The notes below the pieces were generated by a model, which had not been told where the DNA came from, did not search any database, and saw only the letters and a program-made list of their open reading frames with translations. Source: Naegleria gruberi (Eukaryota). From it: 64,000 nt of DNA. Shown here piece by piece: positions 2,902-56,149 of the stretch (position 1 is the first letter of the stretch; every line of letters begins with the position of its first letter). Position numbers and translations under genes: made by a program. The DNA is taken from the NCBI GenBank assembly GCA_000004985.1, contig GG738877.1; one strand, written 5' to 3'.

Positions 2902-3091
2902 GTAATTTTCTTGATTTGGAAAGAGCAAATACTATGACTTAATTTTGAAACCTTGATATTTAAAGTAAAAAGTACTGAAATGGCCGCAGCCATTCAATTG
3001 ATTTATTGACTGTTATCTGACCCAAATGCAAAACCTATGTCTCAACCTGGTAAGCCAGCTCTTTTTGGAAAAGGTACAGAGCTTAACCAAT

Positions 3092-5255
3092 TTATGCAAT
3101 CTCCTCAACAATGGTGTTCTTGCGTGTTGCAGTATAAGCTTTTGAATCTGAAAATTTGTGAAAATGATGTTTTGACATGAAAATAATGAGAGCTTTTACA
3201 AACTTCGTATTGCTCACACTATCATTCATATCGCTCAACAACTTATTCTTCAAATCCGTAATAAGTTCTGATGTTGGCATATATTCTATTATTGGATAAA
3301 TATATTAAATATTAAATAATTAAATACAGCTACATACCTTTCCATTCAATTTTCTCAGTCTTGTTTTTAAATATTTTAAAACTAGTTGAACTATAATCAT
3401 CATATCCATTAAAAGATGTAACTTCAAGTATTACATTCAATATTTCATTACTTGTTGTTTTAAAATTGCATTCTGAATAAATTTTCATTTCATCTAAAAC
3501 TGGACTTGATATGGAAACTGAAAAACCCTTCCTATCATCATTTAATTGTTTCTTTTTCAAATGTTTTTCTGCTTTAGATTTAATATTGTAATCACTATTT
3601 TCAAATTTTACTAATTTTCCAGAATATTTCAAACAGAAATTTCTTAAATCAATTAAACTTTTCAAATGTTGACTACTATTGAAATGATATGATTGTAATG
3701 AAATTTCATTCACAAGCTTTTCCATATATGTAATTCCATCCAATTCATAACATGTATGACAATTTCTACGGATGGTATCATTAGAATTACTATCATTAGA
3801 ATTGCTATCGGAATTACTATTATTAGAATTATTTTTGGATAATAAATTAAAATTTAAATCGTGTAATTGTAAAAATTGTAAAATATCAACTATTGCATAT
3901 TCCTTTTCAGAAAAATTGGTAATGTGAATTTTGAACGAGCATGAACAAATCATTAAAAATTTAACAAAATCTTCCAAATTCCAATTTAGAGGAATATCCA
4001 ACAATGAAAATACATCATTCAATGCCTCCTTATCATGAATTACTTTATCTTGTTCATATGTGTCAGTTAATAACAAAGTTTCCATTCTTTTTTCTTTTCT
4101 AGCTGCCAAATAATAATAAACATGGCATGTATCATCTCCACTACATATTGTCTTGACATGATGTTGAAAGAATTCCATAAATCCATTTCCATCTTTTCTT
4201 TTTATAGATAATTTACAAACACTTCCTTGTGAATGATCCAATTTAACAGATGCCCAACTTGTAAATTTAACATTTCCATCCTTAAATAATTGTTTATAAT
4301 TGTTCAATATTTTTAAATTTTCATCATTGGATGATAAATAATCATTCATATCAATTGAATGAGTGGAATCATTTGACACTAATTGATTGTTTAATATATG
4401 TGCATTTAAATGGAGTATACATCCATTAATAAATTGCATAGTAGATGCAATTGTAGATTTTTTATCTAAATAACTGTTAATTATGTTTTTAAATAAAAGA
4501 TATATTTGAAATTGATATTTACGATACTGTAAATGACTATTATATCCAATGTAGAGTTCATTGGTAAAAGCTGCATGAACAAGTCTAAATGGTAATTGAT
4601 CACTATTTGGTAAATACATGAAAATATTGTGTAATACAATAGTATTCAACCAATTTGTAAAATGATAATTAGGATGTCGAATAATAATTAGTGAAGGAGT
4701 TACATTAGTATTGATAGATTGTGTTACATGTTTAGAATTATTCAATTTTCTCTTTTTCCTACGATGACGAATTTTCCTTTTCAAATCTTCATCATCAGAA
4801 CTTTCCTCTTCATCGGAATCCTCATCTTCCTCATCATCAGAATTATTACATTTACGAGCTTTCTTTTTATCCTCATTTTCCTCTTCCTCGTCTTCTTCCT
4901 CATCCTCTTCATCCTCATCTTCCTCTTCCTCGTCTTCTTCCTCCACTTCTTCCTCCTCTTCCTCATCACAATCACAATACAATTCTTTTCCAAATAATAA
5001 TGTATTTCTAATTTTTTGAACATCACCACGATCATAGTCATAGCTTTCGGAATCATAGCCATAGTTTTCGGAATCATAGTTTTCGAAATCCGAATAATCA
5101 TCTACACTATTTTCTTGCTCTTCCAATTCCTTTTCCAATAAATTTTGTAATTTGCTTTCTTCCCTTAATGGTGCACCATCTGTTTTGAAATGATCATACC
5201 AGCAAGAATCGCCAAATCGACAACAACCTGCTAACCAATACCAACAAACAACCAT
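3092..5255 (-). CDS. CCCH (C3H1) zinc-finger protein with a long poly-Glu/Asp tract. Proposed two exons: 3338..5255 and 3092..3285, intron 3286..3337.
   Basis: N-terminal CWYWLAGCCRFGDSCWYDH is a C-x7-C-x5-C-x3-H finger. The acidic tract is encoded by a GAA/GAG/GAT microsatellite (4780-4980). The track ORF 3330..5255 ends ...EWKGM*, where GTATGT directly overlaps the last codons. Splicing GTATGT...AATAG (52 nt) joins it in frame to track ORF 3092..3280, adding EYMPTSELITDL...EEIA. Confidence 0.5.
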
Positions 5256-20622: not shown

Positions 20623-22375
20623 ATGATCAAATCACCTGCTAAACTATTCTTCACAATTGCATTGATAGTCATTGTCTATTCTTTAATTTTCTTATTATTC
20701 AAGGGAACAAGCAACCATTCACAACTATACGAAAGTGATGAGAAAGCAGCCGAAACACCTCTAACCAACAATGTTCCAACAAGAACAGATAAACAAGGAG
20801 TTTCGGAAGAAGAAAAACCCATTCAATCTTCATCAGACGAAATAGGATTTGGAGAAGCTGACGAAGAAACCACTGAAATTCCAACAGGACTTGCTCCAAT
20901 CTATCCTAAATTTGCCAAACTAATCCTTTCGTATGACTTTCGTAAAAAAGGAACCTACGGATGGTATTTACATAAATTACTAACTAAACATTCCATTGGA
21001 AATCAGCAATTCCCTTCAAAAAAGAAGAGAAAACTAATTCAATTCGGATTTGGAGAGAAATTAACAACTCATCCGAATTGGTTTGGATTTTTCAGGAAAT
21101 TTAATAATACGCATTGTAGACAATCGAATTGTGAATCATTTCCATTGGAAGATTCCAGAACTTTCTTCTCAAAGAATCAAAGTTTGGGAATTTATTTGGA
21201 TGCAAATATTGAACATTACGAATATAAAGATAGAGGATTGGGATTAGCAATGGCTAAGGGAGAGGAAAAGGTTAGAAGAAAAATGGATAAATTTATGAGT
21301 GAGAATCAATCACTACATGATGAGGAGAATCTATCTGAAAAGTTTGATGAGGAATTTGCATTGAAAATGTGGTTGGCAATGAGGCCATTGAATATTCTGT
21401 TGAATAATGAAGCAAATGCATTGAGTGAAGTGGAAAAGAGTGATAATAATGAGAAGGGACATATGGATATGTCAATGTGTTGGAGTAGAAAGTGCTCCAT
21501 TTGGACAACCTATTTCTATACCAAGATGAATTTGGAATTTCAAGAAAATGATTCAGGAAAAATACCAAAACATTGTATCTGTTCATTTATTAGTAATTGT
21601 GTTGAGGAGAGATTGAAAGTTGTGAGAGAAATTAATGCAATCACTCCTGTCACTCAATATGGCAGTAAGTATTTAAGTACTAATGAATTATAACTCATCT
21701 TTTCTCAAAAAAGCATGTGAAAGAAATGCACAAGAAGGAAAGGGAGGTAAAATCCAAGAATTAGCTGACAATTGCAAATTCTACATGGCCTTTGAGAATA
21801 CCTTGAGGGATGATTACATTACTGAGAAATTCTTTGAGGGTTTCATGCCACTTGGTTTGGGAGGAAAAACAATTTCCATCTATAGAGGAGCTTTCAATGT
21901 TGGAGATTATGGATTCAAAAAGGATAGTTTCATTAATTTCCATGATTTTCAAACCCCAACTGAATTGGCAAACTTTATCAAACCATACTGTGAGAGTGAT
22001 ATAAAGTTTGCCAAGCTTTTCCAGCAACGAATGAATGAACAGACTAAAAAATCCATTAAGGAAATGACATTGAAATTGCATTTGGCCAATGTGATCAAGT
22101 CGCCATGTAAATTGTGCACAGCCATTGGTGAAATGAAACTTTCCAGATACATCCTATTTAAATTAGGACTCAAACCAAAATATTATAGAGTGAAAAGTTC
22201 TGAATTTACTAAATTTATTGCGGAGATGGGATATGATAAATTGGAAACAGATCAATTGAGAATTTTGTGGGATATTTGGGATAGAGCTTATGGAAGATTA
22301 ATTAAACCTGATAACAATCAATCAAATTGGAATGATTATGACATTAGTTGGGTGACCTATGTCAAAGATCAATAG
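20623..22375 (+). CDS. GT10-family alpha-1,3-fucosyltransferase, type II membrane topology. Two exons: 20623..21664 and 21714..22375, intron 21665..21713.
   Basis: N-terminal signal anchor (FFTIALIVIVYSLIFLLF). The hallmark GT10 motif CKFYMAFENTLRDDYITEKFFEGF lies in the second track ORF (21683..). A GTAAGT donor at 21665 and acceptor AAAAAAG at 21713 (49 nt, branch-like GTACTAATG) join the two track ORFs in frame (...TQYG/T/CERNAQEG...). Confidence 0.65.
21665..21713 (+). other. Spliceosomal intron (49 nt) in the fucosyltransferase gene, GTAAGT...TACTAAT...AAG.
   Basis: Canonical donor, a yeast-like branch point, and frame continuity between the two track ORFs. Confidence 0.6.
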
Positions 22376-35861: not shown

Positions 35862-37577
35862 ATGAGGCATTCTAGGCCTCCCGTATATAATCACTTTCAT
35901 CATTCTAGCAACAATAATGGAGGATTAGGTCGGGATGATTTTCTTATGAATAGTAAAGATAAATTTAATGTGGATCTAAAATCATCACTTAATGATTTGC
36001 AAATAACAAATAGTTTGAGGAAAAGTATGAATAGGAGAGAATCTATGGAGGATTTGACAGTATTTTTGGAAAAGAATCAAAATAGTGGATTACTCCCTAT
36101 TCAACCAACACCACCTCCGTTGAATAGGGAAGATTCTTTGGCCAATGATGTTTTTACTTATCAGGATAGTATGAAAGAATTTTCTTTGGAAGAATTGAAA
36201 CATCATCACCTTAGACGTCTAAATGAATCTAGGAATGAATCATATAGAGCCAGTAACTATTTTGAATCGGCTGCCTCGCTCATTACCACCACAACCGAAG
36301 AGCAAAACTATTATGACGAAGATGACGAGAATATAGCTATTGAGGGTGTTGATAGAGAGAGTGACATTATGCTCCACAGTGATGATGAGGACTATCAAGA
36401 TGAGGATGATTTCGAGGGTCAAAATCATCTCCTTGGTAAAAAAAAAGTTAAGGTTTTCCCTTTCCTTGTGGATTCTCCACCTGATTTGAAAAAGAAAGGC
36501 CGAACAAAAGCATTACAAGTTGCCTACAATAAGAGAAAGGAAAAACTTCAGAGAGTTAAACAAGAGCTAGAAATGGGTAGAACAAGTCCAACACTCTTCT
36601 CTATCAATTCACAAACACCTCCTCCTTTCAGAAAGAGCCCTTGTCCTCCACTGGATATTTTCCATCAAAATAGTTTTCACAAGAAAAAGCCAGATCCTCT
36701 CCTCTCCTCAATCGAATCCCTCCTTGTACAAATACCTCACCAATCATCCTCAGCCACCTCAATATCGCAACAGAATCATCACAACCTCTCCACCTTTGTT
36801 CCAAGCAAAGAAAGACCCTCCTCAATGAAGGCAGGTCATCGAAAGAAGAATTTAACCAGCAGTGCTGATGGAACTAAAACAAGTCGTTCAGTCTCCTCAA
36901 CCAATGTAAACTTGAACTGTTTACAGAAGGATCCTATTCCTGATGATTATTTGGGGCATCACATTGCAACAACTTCATCACGAATACAGTCCAAATACAA
37001 GGAACACTTTGCAGTTTCGAAAAATCCAATAGTAGTTATTGCAAATAGAAATCAATATAAGGAGAAAAAAGCTGATAAGGAAAAAGCTTTACAAAACAAT
37101 TCTTCCAGTTCTTCCTCTCTACCACTTCCCATCTCCAACTCTCAACCATCCCAATCTCTTGCTCCTCCACACAAATCAAACAATACCACAACAACCAGTA
37201 CAGTTAAGGAGCCAATGAATAGAGCTCCACTGTATAAAATTCCCCAAGCTCCAAAGAGGAAGAAATTAACACCAGAAGATTTGGGACTAACCTATCAAGC
37301 TAGTTTAGAACTTGATAAGGGACTTCCAACATCTTGTCAAGTTGATGCAAAGAAGGTAATCATGCAAACTCTTATCAATTCTTGGATTGGTATTGGACCT
37401 TCACTAGGAGATGTAAATGTTGAAAATAGAAAACCACTCAATTTGAAACCTTCCAAGATTACCTCTTCCAATCCTGAGGAAAGAAGAAAGGAAATTTTGA
37501 AATTAATGTACAAGGACAGGCAAACAGAGGTGAAGGAGAACATTCTGAAACCAAAGCAAACAAAGAAGAATAGGTAG
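35862..37577 (+). CDS. S/P/N-rich basic hypothetical protein.
   Basis: 571-aa ORF with a real ATG. No family recognised. Confidence 0.4.
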   Translation: MRHSRPPVYNHFHHSSNNNGGLGRDDFLMNSKDKFNVDLKSSLNDLQITNSLRKSMNRRESMEDLTVFLEKNQNSGLLPIQPTPPPLNREDSLANDVFTYQDSMKEFSLEELKHHHLRRLNESRNESYRASNYFESAASLITTTTEEQNYYDEDDENIAIEGVDRESDIMLHSDDEDYQDEDDFEGQNHLLGKKKVKVFPFLVDSPPDLKKKGRTKALQVAYNKRKEKLQRVKQELEMGRTSPTLFSINSQTPPPFRKSPCPPLDIFHQNSFHKKKPDPLLSSIESLLVQIPHQSSSATSISQQNHHNLSTFVPSKERPSSMKAGHRKKNLTSSADGTKTSRSVSSTNVNLNCLQKDPIPDDYLGHHIATTSSRIQSKYKEHFAVSKNPIVVIANRNQYKEKKADKEKALQNNSSSSSSLPLPISNSQPSQSLAPPHKSNNTTTTSTVKEPMNRAPLYKIPQAPKRKKLTPEDLGLTYQASLELDKGLPTSCQVDAKKVIMQTLINSWIGIGPSLGDVNVENRKPLNLKPSKITSSNPEERRKEILKLMYKDRQTEVKENILKPKQTKKNR

Positions 37578-37860: not shown

Positions 37861-40752
37861 ATGAGTCATCATCACAATAACAACCACCACCAACAGATGT
37901 TGAATCAATCATCCAATTCTCCACACCTTTCTTCCACCAGCAATGGTGCTGTTACTTCCCAACAACATCACAATACCACCACCACACCAATAACCTCCTC
38001 CACATCAACAACAACGACAAATAGTACACCCTCTAGTATTCAATCATCAACAACGACCACTCCAAATTCCTCCTCCACCAATAATAATAATACATTTCCC
38101 ATCCTCATTGGTGGAGTTTTACTTTCCAATCCTTCTCCTTCATCTTCCTCGTCAACAACAACAACAACACAAATCATCACATCACTTCATCAAATCCTCC
38201 GACAAGTAATAATACCAATAATACTACGACAATTACAACAGAATCGGCACCAAATAGTAATAATTTAAATGCTGCCACTTCATCCAATGATGGAAATATG
38301 CCTCCGAATGCAATTGTTTATAATTCACCAGTAACACTCTATACAGTGGCTTGTACCCATTGTAGAAAGCAACACAAGAAGGTTAGTATTTAAATCTTTA
38401 ATACCTTTTATTAAATAATATTGTTATTTGTAAAGTGTGTAAGTAATATTAAATACATTTGGAGAATGTTTACAATTTTAATAGGATCGTAAAATGCCAA
38501 GTTGTGACCGATGTATTCAGAAAGGAATTAAATGTGAATATAAAGAATCGAAAAGAACACCAAATGGTCAACCTGGTCAACCAATTGAAACTAGTCAACC
38601 ACAAGAAAAATCAACGAGGAAAAAGAAAAAATCAAAATCTCATTCATTTGTATTGGAATCAACAAATGGAAAGGATGAAAAAAATGATAATGAGATATCA
38701 ATTGAAGAGGAAGGATTATCAAAGAGACAAGTTATTGATTTTTACTTTAGTTTTGCAAGTGATGGATTTCCTCTAATGAATAAGGATGATCTGGAAAAGT
38801 GTCCATCTCTGTATTCAGTCTATCTCAAAGATATTGATGAGGAGAGAATGATTATCAAGGAAGATGAAACAGTAGATAATGAAAAAGTAAATAAGGAACT
38901 GGTGGCATTGTTTTTGGGAACTAAAGCTGTTTGTGAAGTGAGATGTGGAATGATGGAGGTTAGTGAAAAAACAGCCAAACTTGCCCGAGCAGCAGTTAGT
39001 AGATATTTTGATAGTCATGAAAGCTTTTTCGTTGCTACTACCTATGCTCTCTTAGCTCAATTTGAAATTTGGAACTCGAGAATTACCAATGCCAAGTTTT
39101 ACCTTCAATTCCCAGCTTTTTATCTCAGAAATAAGTATCTTCAAAAACCAGGATGTGATATTTCACCAACTTCAGGCGAACACGAAGTTGGTCAATGTAC
39201 AAAATGTATGTCAATCATGACCAAATACGAAAAGAATTTGGAAAACAATATTAATTGGGTGGAAAGATGTACCCATTCACTAAGTTCAAATAATGGAAAT
39301 AATACCAAGAGAACATTTTTTGATGTTTCCTATGCAGATGGAGGATTTATTAGCGAAATTCCTAGATACTTTACAATTTTCACTGGTTTGAAATTTCCAA
39401 CTGAATGGATTTCCTCTCTAAATCAAGAAGTTACAGTTAGTAATTGCTTTGATTATTTACAATTGTTAGATTCAATCTTTGCATTTACGACGAGAAACAT
39501 GAGAGAAAGATCAAATATTGAGCTAATCGCCTCAAAGACCAATCCAACACTAGATCTGGATAACAATTCTCCATCGTGCATCTTTCAAGGAGATTATCAA
39601 TATATTGCCTTGTATGAGAGAATGCTAGATGTCGTATTGAATGGATTAAAGATTAGAATTCTCACCAAATTGGGATGTAGTGGTAGAGATCGTGAGAGAG
39701 AAACAATTGAACAAGCAGCATTGAATATTACAATGGCAACTCAACACGAACTGTTTCCACTCTTCCTTCCATATCTAGTTCCATATATTTCAGCAGCAAC
39801 ACTTGTACATTTGAGAGTGTTAAAGATGAATATTCAATCCTATAGTTCGAGCACTTCAACAATTGTTTCACAACATAGAGCCAACAATTGGTCAACTTTA
39901 ATGTATTATGAGGATATTTTGAAAAAGGACTTGAGAGCTATGCAAATTATGGCTAAAAGATTCAAGCTAGTCAGTCTTAACTATAGCAAATTAATGAAAG
40001 AAATCGAGGACACATTTGAAAATTTAGAAAATCTGAAACGATCCACAAAACCAACAATTACAGAATATGAAACTTCTCTTCCACAACAATTCCTGACCTA
40101 TCGACATAATCCACACAATCAGCGAGCACACATGTTGCATCCTCCATCACAAATTCAATCCAATAATATGCAACAAGCCACGAATTTCAATTTTAATCCA
40201 CCACAAGTCCCTCAACCATCAGCATCTTCCTCAACAACCATGCAAAATCCTGGTCTATTCTCACAAATCATACCAAATAATTCACTTCCACTCCATATGG
40301 AATTGCAATCTGCTTCATATTTTGCTAATTTAATGAGTTCACACCAGATGGCCGGTGGTCCACCAATGAGTGGTTTTGACACAACCTCTGCATTTGGAAA
40401 TCTTTTAATGATGCAACAGAATCCTCTCATCAGTAATCCATCACTATCTTCCTCTAGCTCAGCAAATACAAACACAAATAATAATAATAATAATGGTATG
40501 GAATCATTTGGTGGTGGTTTTGGTGGTTTTGGAATGGGAGGTGTGTTTGATCCATTCTTAACTGAGGAAGATTTGGATTTAATCTTCTCAATTCAAAATA
40601 AGGAACAACAACAACAGGTCAATAATTTATCAGTCAACCAAACTGTTTCAAGTAACAATTTGGGTGATCCACTCCAATCAATTTCCCAACTTAATAGTGC
40701 AACAATTCATGATATGATTGATAAACATGTTCAACAAAATGAAAGAAGATAA
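37861..40752 (+). CDS. Zn(II)2Cys6 (GAL4-type) binuclear-cluster transcription factor with N/Q/S/T-rich regions. Proposed structure: ...38381 / micro-exon 38436..38438 / 38485..40752. The true start may instead be the ATG at 38298, because an upstream frame switch exists at about 38150-38170.
   Basis: The frame containing ATG 38298 (frame 0) reads ...MPPNAIVYNSPVTLYTVACTHCRKQHKK up to a GTTAGT donor at 38382. The next track ORF starts ...DRKMPSCDRCIQKGIKCEY. Inserting the single codon TGT (38436-38438), bounded by acceptor TTTGTAAAG and donor GTAAGT, gives ACTHCRKQHKK-C-DRKMPSCDRCIQKGIKC. That is CX2CX6CX6CX2CX6C, exactly the GAL4 spacing. Confidence 0.5.
38436..38438 (+). other. Putative 3-nt micro-exon (TGT, Cys) flanked by introns 38382..38435 (54 nt) and 38439..38484 (46 nt).
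   Basis: Upstream acceptor ...ttgttatttgtaaAG. Downstream donor GTAAGT. It restores the third Zn-ligand cysteine of the Zn2Cys6 cluster in frame. Confidence 0.45.
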
Positions 40753-40847: not shown

Positions 40848-43367
40848 TTATTGTAAAAATACATGAATTGAATCTCCTTCACTCAAATTCTTATCAACAA
40901 AAAAGAATTCATCAACATCAGCAAGAATAGTATTCTTAAATCTATCTTGTGAGCTGATCTTTAAACTCAAAACTTTTGTCTCTCCACTATTGCTACTACA
41001 GGCCGAGGTAGAATCGTTGGACAACAATGAACTGGCATCAGAAGTTGAAGTAGAAGTTTTTGGATCTTCCAACTTGGATTGTTTAAAGTCTTTTGCTCTG
41101 TCTGTCAGTAATTGTTTGATATTCTCCAGTGCAAGTTTACCTTGAATAATTTGAATATTATTTGTTTGAGAAACTTCAAAATGTTTCTTATTGACCTTGA
41201 GAGCGGTTGTGTAAAATTGATGGAAATGTTTAGAAATTTCAGAATCCTTTTCGTTTGGATAAATTCCAAACATTTGTTGTTTCTGAATTCTTAATTGAGT
41301 TTGATTAAATTCGTTAATTTGGTCTAAAAGTTTTGAACTATCACTTGCAATATCATCATCCACTTGATAAAATTGGACAATGATTGATATTTCATCTGGA
41401 TTCTTGTTTCTTTTACAAAGAGTTTCTATTTCTGATGAAAATTTAGTTCTCTTACTGTCACGATCATACTTATCAGTACTACTATCAGATGGAACATGAT
41501 CACTATTATTGGCTCCATTATTATTATTATTATTAATACTGTGAACTGGAGTTGTTGCACTAAATGTAGAAACAGTAAGTGCCTTTCTCTTATGTGTTCG
41601 AGGAGAACCATTTGTTGGTGAATAATCAGTTTGAATTGCTGACACACGATTATTCAAAGGGAATGCCAATGTTGGAGTGAGTGGACTTCCAGTACTGTCT
41701 CCATCTCTCATAGATCTTTGTTTGATTCCTTCCCTTGGATTGTTTCTTCTGATTTTTGAAGGATCGTAGAGTCCACGTTGGAACCTCCACTGTTTGTTAT
41801 AACATGTGGCACATACAGGTCCAGATGTGATTTGATCAATATTTTGTGGGAATGTATTTCTATACGATTCAATATTTCCCTCATGAATTGAATAATTCTT
41901 CTTGAAACTAACTTCAGCATCTGAACGACCACAACAATGACAATTGGTTACTTCTCTATTGGGATCTTCGGTTGTGTTAAGTTTTGGTGATTCATTCACT
42001 AATTTAGTTTTCTTAGTCATATTTGGAGTTCCCATAATGTTTTGTTGTGTGGAAATTTGATTTTGCTGTTGATTCATAGGTCGTGAATACAAGTTTCCAT
42101 TCATTTGTTCATAAGTGTGAATCATTAATCCATTAGTTGACTGATTTTGATCGTGTTGATGTTGCATTACATTTTGATTATTTCTCATGACAACATCATC
42201 TAGATTTGTGCCATTTGTGTGTAAATGTTGTGAATTATCAACAACTGAAGTACTTTGTGTATGTTCCACATAAGGAGCAACACTGTCAAAGTATGTGAAA
42301 TTTACCTTGTCACCTCTCCAATCATTGTTATTTTGTGAAAGTTGTAATTGAGTTGAATTATTCATCATTAAATTATCATGATTTGATTGATCTACAAGAT
42401 TTGTATCATTTTCTTGTTGATTTCCTAAGAAATTCAAAATATTATCTTGAATACCATTTGTATAATTCGAAAGTCCAACTTGTTGTTGTAAAGTAGCAGA
42501 ATTCATTGAATGGTGTTGTAATGAAGAATGCATCATTTGATTAGGTTGCGTCAAATGATGATGATTGGCAGTTGAATGATGAACAACTGGTTGTGAAAGA
42601 CCCAAAGCAGCTGCATTTGGCATGGTTGAGTAATGATGATGGTGTGGTTGCATCATGTGTTGTGATTGTTGTTGAAGTAACATTTGTTGCATAACAAAAT
42701 CCTGATGATCAACTGGAGAATTTGCTTCATTTCCAGCACTTCCTCTCATTGCCATATTCAAAATTAAATTACTGTAATCGTTATTCGTTGAATGTGAATT
42801 CAAATTATTTGAATTTGGATCTAGACCATTATTTGAGAAGGAGGAATGTTGATGCAGTGCAGAATTATTCAATTGTGGATAATTCATTGATTGTGTTTGT
42901 AAATGTTGTTGTTGTCTAAATAATTCTTGTAAAACTTGAGTATTTCCTGTATTCGTTCCCATGCCACCAACAATATTTGAACTACCAATAGAACCACCTC
43001 CATTACCCATCATGTGTTGTTGTTGTTGATTACTTGATGAGATTGAATTGTTGTGAGCTAACTGTTGCTGTTGTGAGGAAGAAGAAACACTTGGATCCAC
43101 CATTGTATTATTGTTATTATTGGAGGACATGTTATGAAGTTGATGATGATAGGGTGAAGTTGAGGAGGAAACAAGTGAATTGCTACTTGAGGACATGCCA
43201 GCATTCACTACTGTATTATTGGCAGTATTGTTGAGATTGGGAGATAGTGGTTGTTGTTGTGATTGAGTAGTGGCAGCTGTTGTTGATGGGCTAACGTTCA
43301 TCATTAAATTATCAGCTGTCGAATAAATAGTATTAAGTGTTGCTGCTGCTGTTTGAGACATCATCAT
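40848..43367 (-). CDS. Very N/Q/S-rich nuclear-type protein with a C-terminal Cys4 zinc-finger-like module.
   Basis: 839-aa ORF starting on ATG triplets. Long poly-N, poly-Q and histidine runs. The Cys4 module is TNCHCCGRSD...(37)...CATCYNKQWRFQRGLY. Confidence 0.45.
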   Translation of the reverse strand: MMMSQTAAATLNTIYSTADNLMMNVSPSTTAATTQSQQQPLSPNLNNTANNTVVNAGMSSSSNSLVSSSTSPYHHQLHNMSSNNNNNTMVDPSVSSSSQQQQLAHNNSISSSNQQQQHMMGNGGGSIGSSNIVGGMGTNTGNTQVLQELFRQQQHLQTQSMNYPQLNNSALHQHSSFSNNGLDPNSNNLNSHSTNNDYSNLILNMAMRGSAGNEANSPVDHQDFVMQQMLLQQQSQHMMQPHHHHYSTMPNAAALGLSQPVVHHSTANHHHLTQPNQMMHSSLQHHSMNSATLQQQVGLSNYTNGIQDNILNFLGNQQENDTNLVDQSNHDNLMMNNSTQLQLSQNNNDWRGDKVNFTYFDSVAPYVEHTQSTSVVDNSQHLHTNGTNLDDVVMRNNQNVMQHQHDQNQSTNGLMIHTYEQMNGNLYSRPMNQQQNQISTQQNIMGTPNMTKKTKLVNESPKLNTTEDPNREVTNCHCCGRSDAEVSFKKNYSIHEGNIESYRNTFPQNIDQITSGPVCATCYNKQWRFQRGLYDPSKIRRNNPREGIKQRSMRDGDSTGSPLTPTLAFPLNNRVSAIQTDYSPTNGSPRTHKRKALTVSTFSATTPVHSINNNNNNGANNSDHVPSDSSTDKYDRDSKRTKFSSEIETLCKRNKNPDEISIIVQFYQVDDDIASDSSKLLDQINEFNQTQLRIQKQQMFGIYPNEKDSEISKHFHQFYTTALKVNKKHFEVSQTNNIQIIQGKLALENIKQLLTDRAKDFKQSKLEDPKTSTSTSDASSLLSNDSTSACSSNSGETKVLSLKISSQDRFKNTILADVDEFFFVDKNLSEGDSIHVFLQ

Positions 43368-54583: not shown

Positions 54584-56149
54584 ATGAGTGAATTATTAAA
54601 GACTAAATTCGATGAACTTATGTTGTTGGTTCAACAAAAGCCTTCTAAACAAGCTCTGATTAAATGGCTCTTATTCAGTGGTGGTATCTTGATTTTGATT
54701 TATGTATACAAGGCTAGTGGAATTGGAAAACTCTTCCGTAAGAAGCCTAGAGCAATCCGTGATCCAAATATCAACTCTACTCACCGTTCTAAACAATCAA
54801 CTCTTAAAGAAAACGAATATGATGTTTGTATTGTTGGTGCTGGTCCATCAGGAGCTACTTGTGCCTATTATCTTGCCAAGTTTGGATACAAAGTTTTGGT
54901 TTTGGAGCAAAAGTATTTCCCACGTGAAAAGACTTGTGGAGATGGTTGTACTGCCAAAACTCTTGCATACCTGAAGGAAATGGGTGTTTTACAAGAATTA
55001 GAAAAGGAAGGAAAGGTCGCCAGTATGGGAAGTGGAGGTATTGTTGGTCCTAATGGTTTGAGTTTCATTGAAAATTCTGGTGCTACTATTGAAAAGATCA
55101 GTGGTGACAATAATTGGACACCAAAAGCAATCAAGAGAATTCACATGGACGAAAAGGTTGCTCGTGCTTGTCAAAAGATGGGTGCCGATCTTAAGGAAGG
55201 TATGGATGTCACCAAGGTTAGTCGTAACTTTGTCGGATTGAAGGGGTGGTCTATTGTTGCTAATCACACTCCAAAGGAAGATGGTGAAACCAAGCAAGTT
55301 AAATTTTTGGCTTCAGTTCTCGTTTGTGCTGATGGTGCTCCATCTAAGCTTGCTACCTCACTCAAGATGGTCAATGAAGAACCACAAGGTATTTCTTCAA
55401 GAGTTTACGTTTCGAACCACAAGATGGAAACTAATTGCATTATCTTCTATCCTAAGCCAGTTTTGCCAGGTTATTGTTCAATGTTTTGTCACTCTGATGG
55501 TGATGTTTCTTTGTGTACTTATATTGTTCCAGGTGGTAAACCAACTAAGGATGATTTGGGTAAACTCCATGAATATTGTACAACTGAAGATCCATTGATT
55601 ACAAAGGCTCTTGGCCCAAATCCTCAATGGCAACAAATGAAGGCTGCTTATTTGAGATTGGGAGGTATTTCTAACTCATACGGTGATAATATTCTCGTTA
55701 TTGGTGATGCTTGCGGTTTGATTAATCCAATGACTGGTGAAGGTATTCACTACGCTATGGATAGGTATGTTTTATTTTTTTTAAAAATTATTTACTGACC
55801 TATTTCAAATAGTGGTAAAATGGCTGCTGAAGTTTTAGGTGATGCCATTAAGGGTGGTGATCTTTCAAAGAATAAGCTCAAACTCTATCAAGATATGTGG
55901 GAATACCAATTTGCTAATGACTTCCATTTCTCTAACGAAGCTGCTGTTCTCGTTGCTAAGTATCCACTCCTCCTTGATGCTGTTGCTTCAGCTGTCAAGA
56001 AAAAGGGTGGTAAATTCTTGGCTGAATTTGCTATGGTTTCTTCAGGTGTGAAGAGTTGGTCTTGGTTCTTGAGACCTGATGTTGCTTTGCCACTTCTTCT
56101 TGAAGTTGTTCTTCTTTCAATCTTTGGTACTCCAAAAAGACAAAAATAA
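54584..56149 (+). CDS. FAD-dependent oxidoreductase of the geranylgeranyl-reductase (ChlP/GGR) family, with an N-terminal hydrophobic anchor. Exons 54584..55764 and 55813..56149, intron 55765..55812.
   Basis: YDVCIVGAGPSGATCAYYLAK is the FAD Rossmann motif. REKTCGDGCT is the GGR Cys motif. GDACGLINPMTGEGIHYAMD/SGKMAAEVLG is the GGR C-terminal FAD motif. The intron GTATGT...TTACTGAC...AAATAG (48 nt) joins the two track ORFs in frame. Confidence 0.65.
55765..55812 (+). other. Spliceosomal intron (48 nt), GTATGT...TTACTGAC...TAG.
   Basis: Canonical yeast-like donor and branch point. It restores the conserved GGR motif across the junction. Confidence 0.65.

What the first reader, a model, noticed from the sequence alone, without database searches (positions are those of the whole stretch)
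38352..38500. Zn2Cys6 DNA-binding domain apparently completed by a 3-nt micro-exon (TGT) between two very short introns
Exon A ends ...ACTHCRKQHKK at a GTTAGT donor (38382). The downstream ORF begins DRKMPSCDRCIQKGIKCEY. Joining them directly gives only five cysteines with 12 residues between Cys2 and Cys3. In the 103-nt gap, the triplet TGT (38436-38438) is preceded by a pyrimidine-rich acceptor (ttgttatttgtaaAG) and followed immediately by a consensus donor GTAAGT. Including it yields CTHCRKQHKKCDRKMPSCDRCIQKGIKC. That is CX2CX6CX6CX2CX6C, the canonical GAL4 spacing, with the typical A-C-x-x-C-R-K-x-x-K-K-C first half. A micro-exon that encodes a single metal-ligand cysteine is unusual and is easy for gene callers to miss.
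Basis: partly seen in the sequence, partly recalled or inferred. Interest (0 to 1): 0.62.

Follow-up and report, generated by a model that had tools for sequence, protein, structure and literature searches.

The report
Three-base exon completes a zinc-cluster domain
A Naegleria gruberi transcription-factor gene almost certainly carries a 3-base exon (TGT), between two very short introns, that supplies one of six zinc-binding cysteines; the public gene model misses it and so loses the DNA-binding domain. Exons this small are already known elsewhere.

Summary
The window is Naegleria gruberi. The gene is NAEGRDRAFT_58437, annotated only as the 752-aa ORF from ATG 38494, which has no Pfam domain.

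Exon A ends at 38381 (…ACTHCRKQHKK). Then come a 54-nt intron (38382-38435), TGT (38436-38438), a 46-nt intron (38439-38484) and exon C (38485-40752).

- An exhaustive enumeration finds no single deletion that restores an open frame with a six-cysteine cluster. It finds exactly one GT-AG two-intron solution, the proposed one.
- With the Cys, Pfam Zn_clus scores 37.3 bits against 28.1 without. The peptide then aligns without gaps to LAC9 across all six cysteines.
- All three orthologues have Cys here. N. lovaniensis has one intron exactly at the intron-1 site. Willaertia magna has one intron 1 nt from the intron-2 site. An N. fowleri-like genome has none.
- Introns of 48-49 nt are confirmed elsewhere in the window.

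No transcript data could be reached, so inclusion is inferred, at about 0.87 confidence. Three-base exons are known in animals, plants and fungi, Zn_clus is already the largest Naegleria transcription-factor family, and a 20-nt microexon inside a Zn2Cys6 domain is known in Trichoderma. This is a new member of a known kind and a useful annotation fix.

The parts
37861..38148 (+). Probable N-terminal coding region of the same gene (frame +1, from ATG 37861; MSHHHNNN…FPILIGGVLLSNPSPSSS). Its link to exon A is unresolved.
   Evidence: tblastn with N. lovaniensis P0003 residues 5-107 matches this frame. The frame changes to +3 between 38148 and 38157 inside a low-complexity TCN/AAC run. The only canonical GT-AG fixes use the weak donor GTCAAC at 38151: 38151-38206 (56 nt) or 38151-38257 (107 nt). 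Otherwise it is a 1-nt indel, or translation starts at ATG 38298.
38157..38381 (+). Exon A (frame +3). It ends …PPNAIVYNSPVTLYTVACTHCRKQHKK and encodes Cys1, Cys2 and the basic stretch of the zinc cluster. The first in-frame ATG is at 38298.
   Evidence: Translation. tblastn HSP to P0003 residues 116-197 ends exactly at 38381. The last 27 residues are 20/27 identical to both Naegleria orthologues, against 47-48% for the aligned whole protein.
38382..38435 (+). Intron 1: 54 nt, phase 0, GTTAGT…TTGTTATTTGTAAAG, 15% GC.
   Evidence: N. lovaniensis has an 83-nt intron at the identical codon boundary, AAG|GTATGT…AAAAAG|TGC.
38436..38438 (+). Micro-exon TGT, encoding Cys3 of the Zn2Cys6 cluster.
   Evidence: It is the only two-intron GT-AG solution that restores CX2CX6CX6CX2CX6C, and no single-deletion solution exists. 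Cys is present at this position in all three orthologues. Pfam rises by 9 bits. The peptide aligns without gaps to LAC9 (1cld) across all six cysteines, and also matches HAP1/CYP1, PUT3 and GAL4.
38439..38484 (+). Intron 2: 46 nt, phase 0, GTAAGTA…TTTACAATTTTAATAG, 20% GC.
   Evidence: Retaining it gives a stop after 18 codons (CVSNIKYIWRMFTILIGS*). Willaertia magna has a 54-nt intron 1 nt downstream of this position, TGT G|GTATGT…TTTAG|AT.
38485..40752 (+). Exon C: DRKMPSCDRCIQKGIKCEY… It holds Cys4-6 of the cluster, about 450 aa of conserved all-helical region, a Q/N-rich tail, the conserved VFDPFLTEEDLDLIFS motif, and the stop codon at 40750-40752.
   Evidence: ORF listing. It is collinear with the orthologues to the C-terminus. 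The annotated model NAEGRDRAFT_58437 is only 38494-40752 and has no Pfam hit.

Best explanation
The locus is the Naegleria gruberi gene annotated as NAEGRDRAFT_58437. It encodes a GAL4-type Zn(II)2Cys6 transcription factor whose DNA-binding domain is split across three exons.

Exon A (to 38381) carries Cys1, Cys2 and the basic RKQHKK stretch. A 3-nt exon, TGT (38436-38438), carries Cys3. Exon C (from 38485) carries Cys4-6 and the rest of the protein. The minimal corrected coding sequence is join(38298..38381, 38436..38438, 38485..40752), 784 aa.

The two flanking introns, 54 and 46 nt, belong to the organism's class of minimal AT-rich introns.

Inferred mechanism: each intron is recognised across the intron (intron definition), and the two are removed one after the other rather than together. 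The 3' splice site of intron 1 and the 5' splice site of intron 2 are only 3 nt apart, so their recognition complexes would overlap. Whichever intron goes first, the TGT becomes part of a normal-sized exon for the second reaction. Donor 2 has no helpful exonic context (TGT|) but a perfect intronic GTAAGTA. Donor 1 has an off-consensus +3 T (GTTAGT) but a consensus exonic AAG|. This looks like the usual compensation in pairing with U1 snRNA.

Shown: the sequence anatomy, the uniqueness of the solution, the domain scores, the orthologue cysteine and the orthologue intron positions. Inferred: actual inclusion in mRNA, splicing order, and zinc and DNA binding.
For: (1) Identity. There is a 100% match to N. 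gruberi NAEGRDRAFT_58437, whose model is the ORF alone from ATG 38494. That model has no Pfam hit.

(2) Uniqueness. Zero single deletions with any boundaries restore an open frame with a six-Cys cluster, and exactly one GT-AG two-intron solution does.

(3) Domain. PF00172 scores 37.3 bits with the Cys and 28.1 without, against a cut-off of 21. With the Cys, the peptide aligns without gaps to LAC9 across all six cysteines, and it matches HAP1/CYP1, PUT3 and GAL4.

(4) Orthologues. N. lovaniensis, an N. fowleri-like genome and Willaertia magna all read …HK[KR]-C-DR[KR]…. tblastn leaves exactly one residue, C198, unaligned between 38381 and 38485.

(5) Intron positions. N. lovaniensis has a single 83-nt phase-0 intron at the intron-1 site. 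W. magna has a single 54-nt intron 1 nt from the intron-2 site. The N. fowleri-like locus is intronless.

(6) Intron size. Introns of 49 nt (21665-21713) and 48 nt (55765-55812) in this window are confirmed by Pfam domains that span the junctions. W. magna introns are 54 and 46 nt.

(7) Chance. The motif has an expectation of about 2e-5 per 103 nt.

(8) Selection. The DNA-binding region is 41/52 identical to each Naegleria orthologue, against 47-48% for the aligned whole protein. All the other five Cys are retained.

(9) Feasibility. Long-read data in Coprinopsis cinerea support 27 exons of 3 nt, and some of 1-2 nt (PMC12230235).
Against: - No cDNA or RNA-seq junction evidence could be reached. 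The protein database holds no transcript-derived N. gruberi product, and look-ups failed.
- Donor 1 (GTTAGT) has T at +3, which none of the other likely introns seen in the window has.
- The Willaertia intron is offset by 1 nt, so its homology with intron 2 is not established.
- The N-terminal part of the gene shows an unexplained frame change near 38150. This leaves some doubt about the integrity or assembly of the 5' region.
Confidence: 0.87

Rival explanations
1. Regulated micro-exon. Both isoforms are made. Inclusion gives a DNA-binding-competent six-Cys factor. In-frame skipping (donor 38382 joined to acceptor 38484) gives a five-Cys protein that cannot fold its zinc cluster and acts as an inactive or dominant-negative form. 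This would be a splice-level on/off switch like Xlr2 of Trichoderma.
For: - Skipping 3 nt keeps the frame, so the product would escape nonsense-mediated decay.
- A 103-nt intron is within the species' range. The mean intron is 203 bp (PMC8296547).
- Donor 1 is slightly off consensus.
- Precedent: a 20-nt microexon encoding PCRRCE of a Zn2Cys6 domain is included conditionally in T. virens Xlr2 (PMC11121469).
- Exon skipping was detected in N. gruberi transcriptomes (PMC6142364).
Against: - There are no expression data for this gene.
- Relatives encode the Cys constitutively, with one intron or none beside it, so a switch would be specific to N. gruberi.
- Intron retention exceeds exon skipping in nearly all the eukaryotes surveyed.
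Confidence: 0.12
2. A single 103-nt intron (38382-38484) is always removed. The protein lacks Cys3, so it is a degenerate or decaying zinc cluster, and the TGT between AG and GTAAGT is coincidence.
For: - GTTAGT…AATAG is a canonical pair of plausible length (one search lists it).
- Pfam still scores the five-Cys version at 28.1 bits, above the cut-off.
Against: - The motif is expected only about 2e-5 to 7e-3 times per 103 nt by chance.
- The other five Cys and the basic residues are conserved at 41/52 identity, which is not expected for a dead domain.
- All orthologues keep the Cys.
- Both component intron positions exist in relatives.
Confidence: 0.05
3. The annotated model is right. Translation starts at ATG 38494 (MPSCDRC…), and the upstream sequence is 5' UTR or a relic, so no zinc cluster is made.
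For: - This is the public JGI/NCBI model.
- An ATG lies 9 nt into exon C.
- The upstream region has a frame discontinuity near 38150.
Against: - Exon A is conserved as protein (20/27) right up to the GT donor.
- The orthologues encode a full cluster about 200 aa from their N-termini.
- The annotated product starts in the middle of a domain and has no Pfam hit.
- Ab initio callers routinely miss such exons. The same thing happened to Xlr2 in eight Trichoderma genomes.
Confidence: 0.03

Closest known systems
GAL4-type Zn(II)2Cys6 binuclear-cluster transcription factors (Pfam PF00172; GAL4, LAC9, HAP1, PUT3), including the large Naegleria Zn_clus family
   Same: Six cysteines with CX2CX6CX6CX2CX6C spacing and an A-C-x-x-C-R-K-x-x-K-K-C first half. 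The match is above the Pfam threshold, and the alignment to the solved LAC9 domain is ungapped. Zn_clus is already listed as the largest transcription-factor family in Naegleria, with 78 genes in N. gruberi and 56-58 in N. fowleri. The N. fowleri orthologue g4614 is in that list (PMC8296547 Table S3).
   Different: No fungal middle-homology (Fungal_trans) domain is detectable by Pfam. The all-helical central region gives only a low-confidence model and no significant fold match. The third Cys codon is a separate exon.
Xlr2 microexon of Trichoderma virens (PMC11121469)
   Same: A microexon inside the Zn2Cys6 DNA-binding domain encodes zinc-ligand cysteines and is flanked by canonical short introns. 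JGI gene models missed it, so the annotated protein lacks the domain.
   Different: The Xlr2 exon is 20 nt and encodes PCRRCE (two cysteines). It has RNA-seq support and glucose-dependent inclusion. Here the exon is 3 nt and encodes one cysteine (Cys3), the organism is a heterolobosean, and there is no transcript or regulatory evidence.
Ultra-short (1-3 nt) exons documented by long reads or RT-PCR: Coprinopsis cinerea (27 exons of 3 nt), Drosophila hth 3-bp micro-exon, human MAP4K5 3-base exon, plant microexons
   Same: An internal 3-nt coding exon between GT-AG introns, easily missed by annotation pipelines (PMC12230235; PMC7392893, PMC8632122 and PMC8831610).
   Different: Those cases have transcript proof. 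None found here is in Heterolobosea, and a literature search for Naegleria plus microexon found nothing relevant. Animal examples sit between long introns and rely on exon-definition helpers. Here both introns are minimal, at 46 and 54 nt.
Recursive splice sites / zero-length exons and spliceosomal twin introns (stwintrons)
   Same: A 3' splice site (AG) and a strong 5' splice site (GTAAGT) are almost juxtaposed, which implies two consecutive splicing reactions in a roughly 100-nt stretch.
   Different: In those systems nothing is left in the mRNA. Here 3 nt must remain to encode Cys. Neither intron interrupts the other's splice signals, so it is not a stwintron.

Membership tests
Zn(II)2Cys6 binuclear cluster domain (PF00172) | Six cysteines spaced CX2CX6CX5-12CX2CX6-8C | tested here: met
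   CTHCRKQHKKCDRKMPSCDRCIQKGIKC is obtained only when TGT 38436-38438 is included. Without it there are five Cys.
Zn(II)2Cys6 binuclear cluster domain (PF00172) | Profile score above Pfam's gathering threshold | tested here: met
   37.3 bits (E 2.9e-9) against a cut-off of 21; 28.1 bits without the Cys. The annotated 752-aa model has no hit.
Zn(II)2Cys6 binuclear cluster domain (PF00172) | Alignment of all six ligands with experimentally solved domains | tested here: met
   Ungapped phmmer alignment to LAC9 1cld through all six Cys. HAP1/CYP1 (the only gap follows Cys5), PUT3 and GAL4 1d66 are also matched.
Zn(II)2Cys6 binuclear cluster domain (PF00172) | Binds two Zn(II) ions and CGG-type DNA sites | not testable with these tools
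   Needs biochemistry.
Fungal Gal4-like regulator architecture | Middle homology region (PF04082 / PF11951) downstream of the cluster | tested here: not met
   No Pfam hit other than Zn_clus in any of the four orthologues. The AlphaFold model is all-helical over residues 70-517 but has mean pLDDT 45.8. The best Foldseek PDB hit has E 0.028, and Cep3 has only E 0.24.
Micro-exon (internal exon of 30 nt or less between spliceosomal introns) | Canonical GT…AG boundaries on both flanking introns | tested here: met
   GTTAGT…AAAG and GTAAGT…ATAG.
Micro-exon (internal exon of 30 nt or less between spliceosomal introns) | Flanking introns of a length the organism's spliceosome handles | tested here: met
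   The flanking introns are 54 and 46 nt. Domain-validated introns in the window are 49 and 48 nt, and W. magna introns are 54 and 46 nt.
Micro-exon (internal exon of 30 nt or less between spliceosomal introns) | Encoded residue required by and conserved in orthologues | tested here: met
   Cys is present in N. lovaniensis, the N. fowleri-like genome and W. magna. A one-residue gap (C198) falls exactly at this place in tblastn.
Micro-exon (internal exon of 30 nt or less between spliceosomal introns) | Same three-exon structure in orthologues | tested here: not met
   No relative has both introns. N. lovaniensis has intron 1 only, W. magna has an intron 1 nt from intron 2 only, and the N. fowleri-like genome has none. 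The micro-exon as such is seen only in N. gruberi.
Micro-exon (internal exon of 30 nt or less between spliceosomal introns) | Spliced junctions observed in transcripts | not testable with these tools
   No transcript-derived protein is in the database.
Stwintron / recursive zero-length exon | One intron interrupts a splice signal of the other, and nothing remains in the mRNA | tested here: not met
   The two introns are separate, and TGT must stay in the mRNA to restore the cluster.

The most novel reading that the evidence does not exclude
There are two novel readings.

(a) The 3-nt exon is a functional toggle. Because skipping it is in-frame, N. gruberi could switch this regulator between a DNA-binding form and a non-binding (five-Cys) form by choosing between two minimal introns and one 103-nt intron.

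(b) The micro-exon is ancestral to Naegleria plus Willaertia and has been resolved in three different ways in the descendants: loss of the 3' intron, loss of the 5' intron with a 1-nt slide, and loss of both. That would make this single codon a compact natural record of intron loss and intron sliding.
Probability: 0.15. Interest if true: 0.6.

Novelty: new member of a known kind. Interest (0 to 1): 0.36.

Why it matters
Practically, the finding corrects a public gene model. NAEGRDRAFT_58437 changes from an 'uncharacterized protein' with no domain into a Zn2Cys6 transcription factor, and would add one member to domain-based counts of the largest Naegleria transcription-factor family.

It also warns that other members of that family, and other N. 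gruberi genes, may be truncated in the same way, because ab initio callers cannot see 3-nt exons.

For intron biology, it is a candidate example of an ultra-short exon in a deeply branching, intron-poor protist (1.7 exons per gene). Both flanking introns are near the minimal length, and four related species show four different exon-intron arrangements around one codon.

It does not reveal a new kind of system.

Tried and rejected
- **Single-intron or shifted-boundary solutions.** I enumerated every deletion of 20 nt or more starting in 38352-38499 and ending by 38559. None gives an open frame plus six Cys.
- **Intron 2 as a duplicate of intron 1, or homologous to the N. lovaniensis intron.** Global alignments are no better than shuffles, with p 0.44, 0.31 and 0.87.
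- **Introner-like repeated intron.** blastn-short of the 103-nt gap against the window finds only short AT-rich chance matches.
- **More orthologues.**
  - A profile search of the protein database returned only the same proteins.
  - A 55-aa domain query found no candidates.
  - A metagenome scan returned three unrelated Zn_clus genes.
- **Transcript evidence.** The annotated protein is not on record in the contig index.
- **Other Zn clusters in the window.** A regex scan of six frames found none, but the half-motif patterns I used would have missed even this gene, so that part is uninformative.
- **C-terminal domain identity.** Pfam found nothing. A PDB profile search matched only the zinc cluster region, apart from sub-threshold I-MsoI endonuclease hits. 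The AlphaFold2 model has mean pLDDT 45.8 and Foldseek found no significant match.
- **Stwintron or recursive-site reading.** Rejected, because 3 nt must remain in the mRNA.
- **Whether NAEGRDRAFT_58437 is missing from the published N. gruberi Zn_clus list.** This could not be checked, because the supplement holds per-gene sheets for N. fowleri only.
Full report
**1. The observation**

The stated sequence features are all present at the stated coordinates.

- Exon A reads …NAIVYNSPVTLYTVACTHCRKQHKK and ends with AAG at 38379-38381. GTTAGT follows at 38382.
- The stretch 38382-38484 is 103 nt.
- TGT lies at 38436-38438, directly after …TTGTTATTTGTAAAG and directly before GTAAGT (38439).
- AATAG ends at 38484. 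GAT CGT AAA ATG CCA AGT TGT GAC CGA TGT… begins at 38485 and runs as an open frame to the stop at 40752.
- The two putative introns are 54 nt (15% GC) and 46 nt (20% GC). The window as a whole is 34% GC.

The motif AG-TGY-GTWAGT occurs once in the whole window on both strands, at this site. Dinucleotide shuffles give 0.03 expected, roughly 2e-5 for a 103-nt gap. Even the bare AG-TGY-GT motif has an empirical expectation of 0.007 per 103 nt.

**2. Organism and gene**

A protein search with the spliced product gives a 100% match to 'hypothetical protein NAEGRDRAFT_58437 [Naegleria gruberi]'. That model is 752 aa. It is exactly the ORF from ATG 38494 (MPSCDRC…), so it starts in the middle of the zinc cluster. 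It has no Pfam hit.

Three orthologues were found:
- N. lovaniensis C9374_003262, 1269 aa.
- A 1367-aa protein from a Logan assembly of SRR29240419.
- Willaertia magna ABK040_010674, 613 aa.

The zinc-cluster peptide of the Logan protein is identical to that of N. fowleri 986 g4614 in Table S3 of Herman et al. 2021 (PMC8296547). In its structured regions the protein is nearly identical to the N. lovaniensis one. I therefore treat it as N. fowleri or a very close relative.

**3. Is the cysteine needed, and is the micro-exon the only way to get it?**

All three orthologues read …CRK(Q/I)HK(K/R)-C-DR(K/R)xPSC….

tblastn of the N. lovaniensis protein against the window gives one HSP that ends at K197 at base 38381. 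The next HSP starts at D199 at base 38485. Exactly one residue, C198, is left over.

I enumerated every deletion of at least 20 nt starting in 38352-38499 and ending by 38559, whatever its boundaries. None restores an open frame with a six-cysteine cluster. Among all pairs of GT-AG introns there is exactly one solution: 38382-38435 plus 38439-38484, leaving TGT. Retaining intron 2 gives CVSNIKYIWRMFTILIGS-stop.

With the Cys, Pfam Zn_clus scores 37.3 bits (E 2.9e-9). Without it the score is 28.1 bits. With the Cys the peptide aligns without gaps to LAC9 (1cld) through all six ligands. It also matches HAP1/CYP1 (the only gap follows Cys5), PUT3 and GAL4.

The DNA-binding region is 41/52 identical to each Naegleria orthologue, and exon A's last 27 residues are 20/27 identical. 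The aligned whole protein is 47-48% identical. The cluster is therefore under selection in N. gruberi, which argues against a decayed five-Cys domain.

**4. Gene structures around this codon in relatives**

| Species | Sequence around the Cys codon |
|---|---|
| N. gruberi | AAG AAG \|gttagt…54 nt…aaag\| TGT \|gtaagt…46 nt…atag\| GAT CGT |
| N. lovaniensis | AAA AAG \|gtatgt…83 nt…aaag\| TGC GAC CGA |
| N. fowleri-like | AAA CGT TGC GAC CGA (no intron; the whole gene is one ORF) |
| W. magna | AAG AAA TGT G\|gtatgt…54 nt…ttag\|AT AGA |

- Intron 1 sits at the identical phase-0 position in N. lovaniensis.
- An intron 1 nt from the intron-2 site exists in Willaertia. It is phase 1, inside the Asp codon, and the offset is real because shifting either intron by one base destroys GT-AG.
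- No relative has both introns, so the 3-nt exon as such is seen only in N. gruberi.

I take the tree to be ((N. fowleri, N. lovaniensis), N. gruberi), Willaertia. That branching order is my own background knowledge, not a tool result.
- On that tree, intron 1 was present in the Naegleria ancestor and was lost in the N. fowleri lineage.
- Intron 2 is either ancestral or a gain in the N. gruberi lineage. If ancestral, it was lost in the fowleri/lovaniensis stem and slid by 1 nt in one lineage.
- The intron sequences show no significant similarity to each other or across species. They have no other copies in the window. Neither a duplication nor an introner-type origin is supported.

**5. Are 46- and 54-nt introns plausible here?**

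The published mean intron length for N. gruberi is 203 bp, with 1.7 exons per gene (PMC8296547). A simple ORF-joining scan of the window nevertheless finds several minimal introns. Two were validated.
- 21665-21713 (49 nt, GTAAGT…AAAAAG) lies inside a Glyco_transf_10 domain match.
- 55765-55812 (48 nt, GTATGT…AAATAG, with TACTGAC) lies inside an FAD_binding_3 match that runs through the GDAxGxxNPxxGEG motif.

The two Willaertia introns in the orthologue are 54 and 46 nt. The two introns proposed here fit this size class.

**6. How it most likely works**

Shown: the anatomy, the uniqueness of the solution, the domain completion and the comparative support.

Inferred from general knowledge of U1 and U2AF footprints and of intron definition in short-intron organisms:
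- Each intron is paired across itself.
- The 3' splice site of intron 1 and the 5' splice site of intron 2 are only 3 nt apart, so they cannot be occupied at the same time and the introns are removed consecutively.
- After either first step, the TGT is part of an ordinary exon for the second step.
- Donor 2 has no favourable exonic bases but a perfect GTAAGTA. Donor 1 has T at +3 but a consensus AAG| exon end.

That such exons can be spliced in a short-intron organism is shown by the 27 exons of 3 nt, and others of 1-2 nt, supported by long reads in Coprinopsis cinerea (PMC12230235).

The product is a GAL4-type zinc-cluster regulator. Its central region of about 450 aa is conserved and predicted to be helical. 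It matches no Pfam family, and the model is too poor for fold assignment.

**7. Comparison with what is known**

- Zn_clus proteins are not new in Naegleria. They are the largest transcription-factor family there, with 78 in N. gruberi and 56-58 in N. fowleri (PMC8296547 Table S3).
- Three-base exons are documented in Drosophila hth, human MAP4K5, plants and Coprinopsis.
- A microexon inside a Zn2Cys6 domain is also known. The 20-nt exon of Trichoderma Xlr2 encodes PCRRCE, was missed by JGI models, and is included conditionally (PMC11121469).
- I found no report of micro-exons in Naegleria.

The finding is therefore a new member of a known kind. It is real with high probability and useful as an annotation correction. 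It is mildly interesting for intron evolution, because four species show four different structures around one codon.

**8. What remains open**

- No transcript data could be reached. Constitutive inclusion versus partial in-frame skipping is untested.
- The 5' part of the gene has an unexplained frame change. Orthologue-supported coding runs in frame +1 from ATG 37861 to about 38148, and in frame +3 from about 38157. The only GT-AG fixes use a weak GTCAAC donor at 38151. A 1-nt indel in the (AAC)n run, or a start at ATG 38298, are alternatives.

**9. Verdict**

- Observation: confirmed.
- Interpretation: supported, at 0.87 confidence that TGT is included in the functional mRNA.
- Novelty: new member of a known kind.
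- Interest: 0.36.

Noticed in passing
window 37861-38381 (frame change near 38148-38157): Orthologue-supported coding switches from frame +1 (ATG 37861 … FPILIGGVLLSNPSPSSS) to frame +3 (…NNTNNTTTITTESAPNSNN…PPNAIVY) inside a TCN/(AAC)5 low-complexity run. The only canonical GT-AG fixes are 38151-38206 (56 nt) or 38151-38257 (107 nt), both with a weak GTCAAC donor. Otherwise it is a 1-nt indel or assembly error, or translation starts at ATG 38298.
   Followed up: partly
window 38494-40752: The public model NAEGRDRAFT_58437 is just this ORF. It begins inside the zinc cluster and has no Pfam domain, so domain-based transcription-factor counts would miss this gene.
   Followed up: yes
L003 3137-3190 (Willaertia magna JBEGDK010000157.1): The Willaertia intron lies 1 nt downstream of the N. 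gruberi intron-2 position (phase 1 against phase 0). This is either a possible one-base intron slide or an independent insertion at a neighbouring site.
   Followed up: partly
L004 about 2640-2700 and L006 about 3060-3100 (JAESGV010003934.1, JAESGV010002342.1): These are unrelated zinc-cluster genes (…CRKQHKKCDRKLPKC…) from a metagenome-collection assembly. They appear to have 30-31-nt introns (GTAATG…CACTAAC…TGTAG and GTTTGT…TACTAAT…TTAG) that split the Cys4 codon in phase 1. Removing them restores CX6CX2CX6C. The organism is unknown.
   Followed up: no
window 21665-21713 (+) and 55765-55812 (+): Two minimal introns (49 and 48 nt) lie inside a GT10 fucosyltransferase-like gene and an FAD-dependent oxidoreductase gene. 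Both are confirmed by Pfam matches that span the junctions. A further likely 52-nt intron at 3286-3337 (-) was not validated.
   Followed up: partly
window 35862-37577 (+) and 40848-43367 (-): The flanking ORFs (571 aa, and 839 aa Q/N-rich) have no Pfam hit. In N. lovaniensis and the N. fowleri-like locus the upstream neighbour is a syntaxin/SNARE gene, which is not the immediate upstream ORF here. This may be a local synteny difference. The 839-aa ORF contains a CHCCGRS…CATCYNKQWRFQRG stretch that might be a divergent zinc finger.
   Followed up: no
PMC8296547 Table S3, N. fowleri 986 g4614: The published N. fowleri 986 model places the zinc cluster at residues 501-538, whereas it lies around residues 211-248 in the intronless ORF of L002. 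The published model may therefore be fused to an upstream gene.
   Followed up: no
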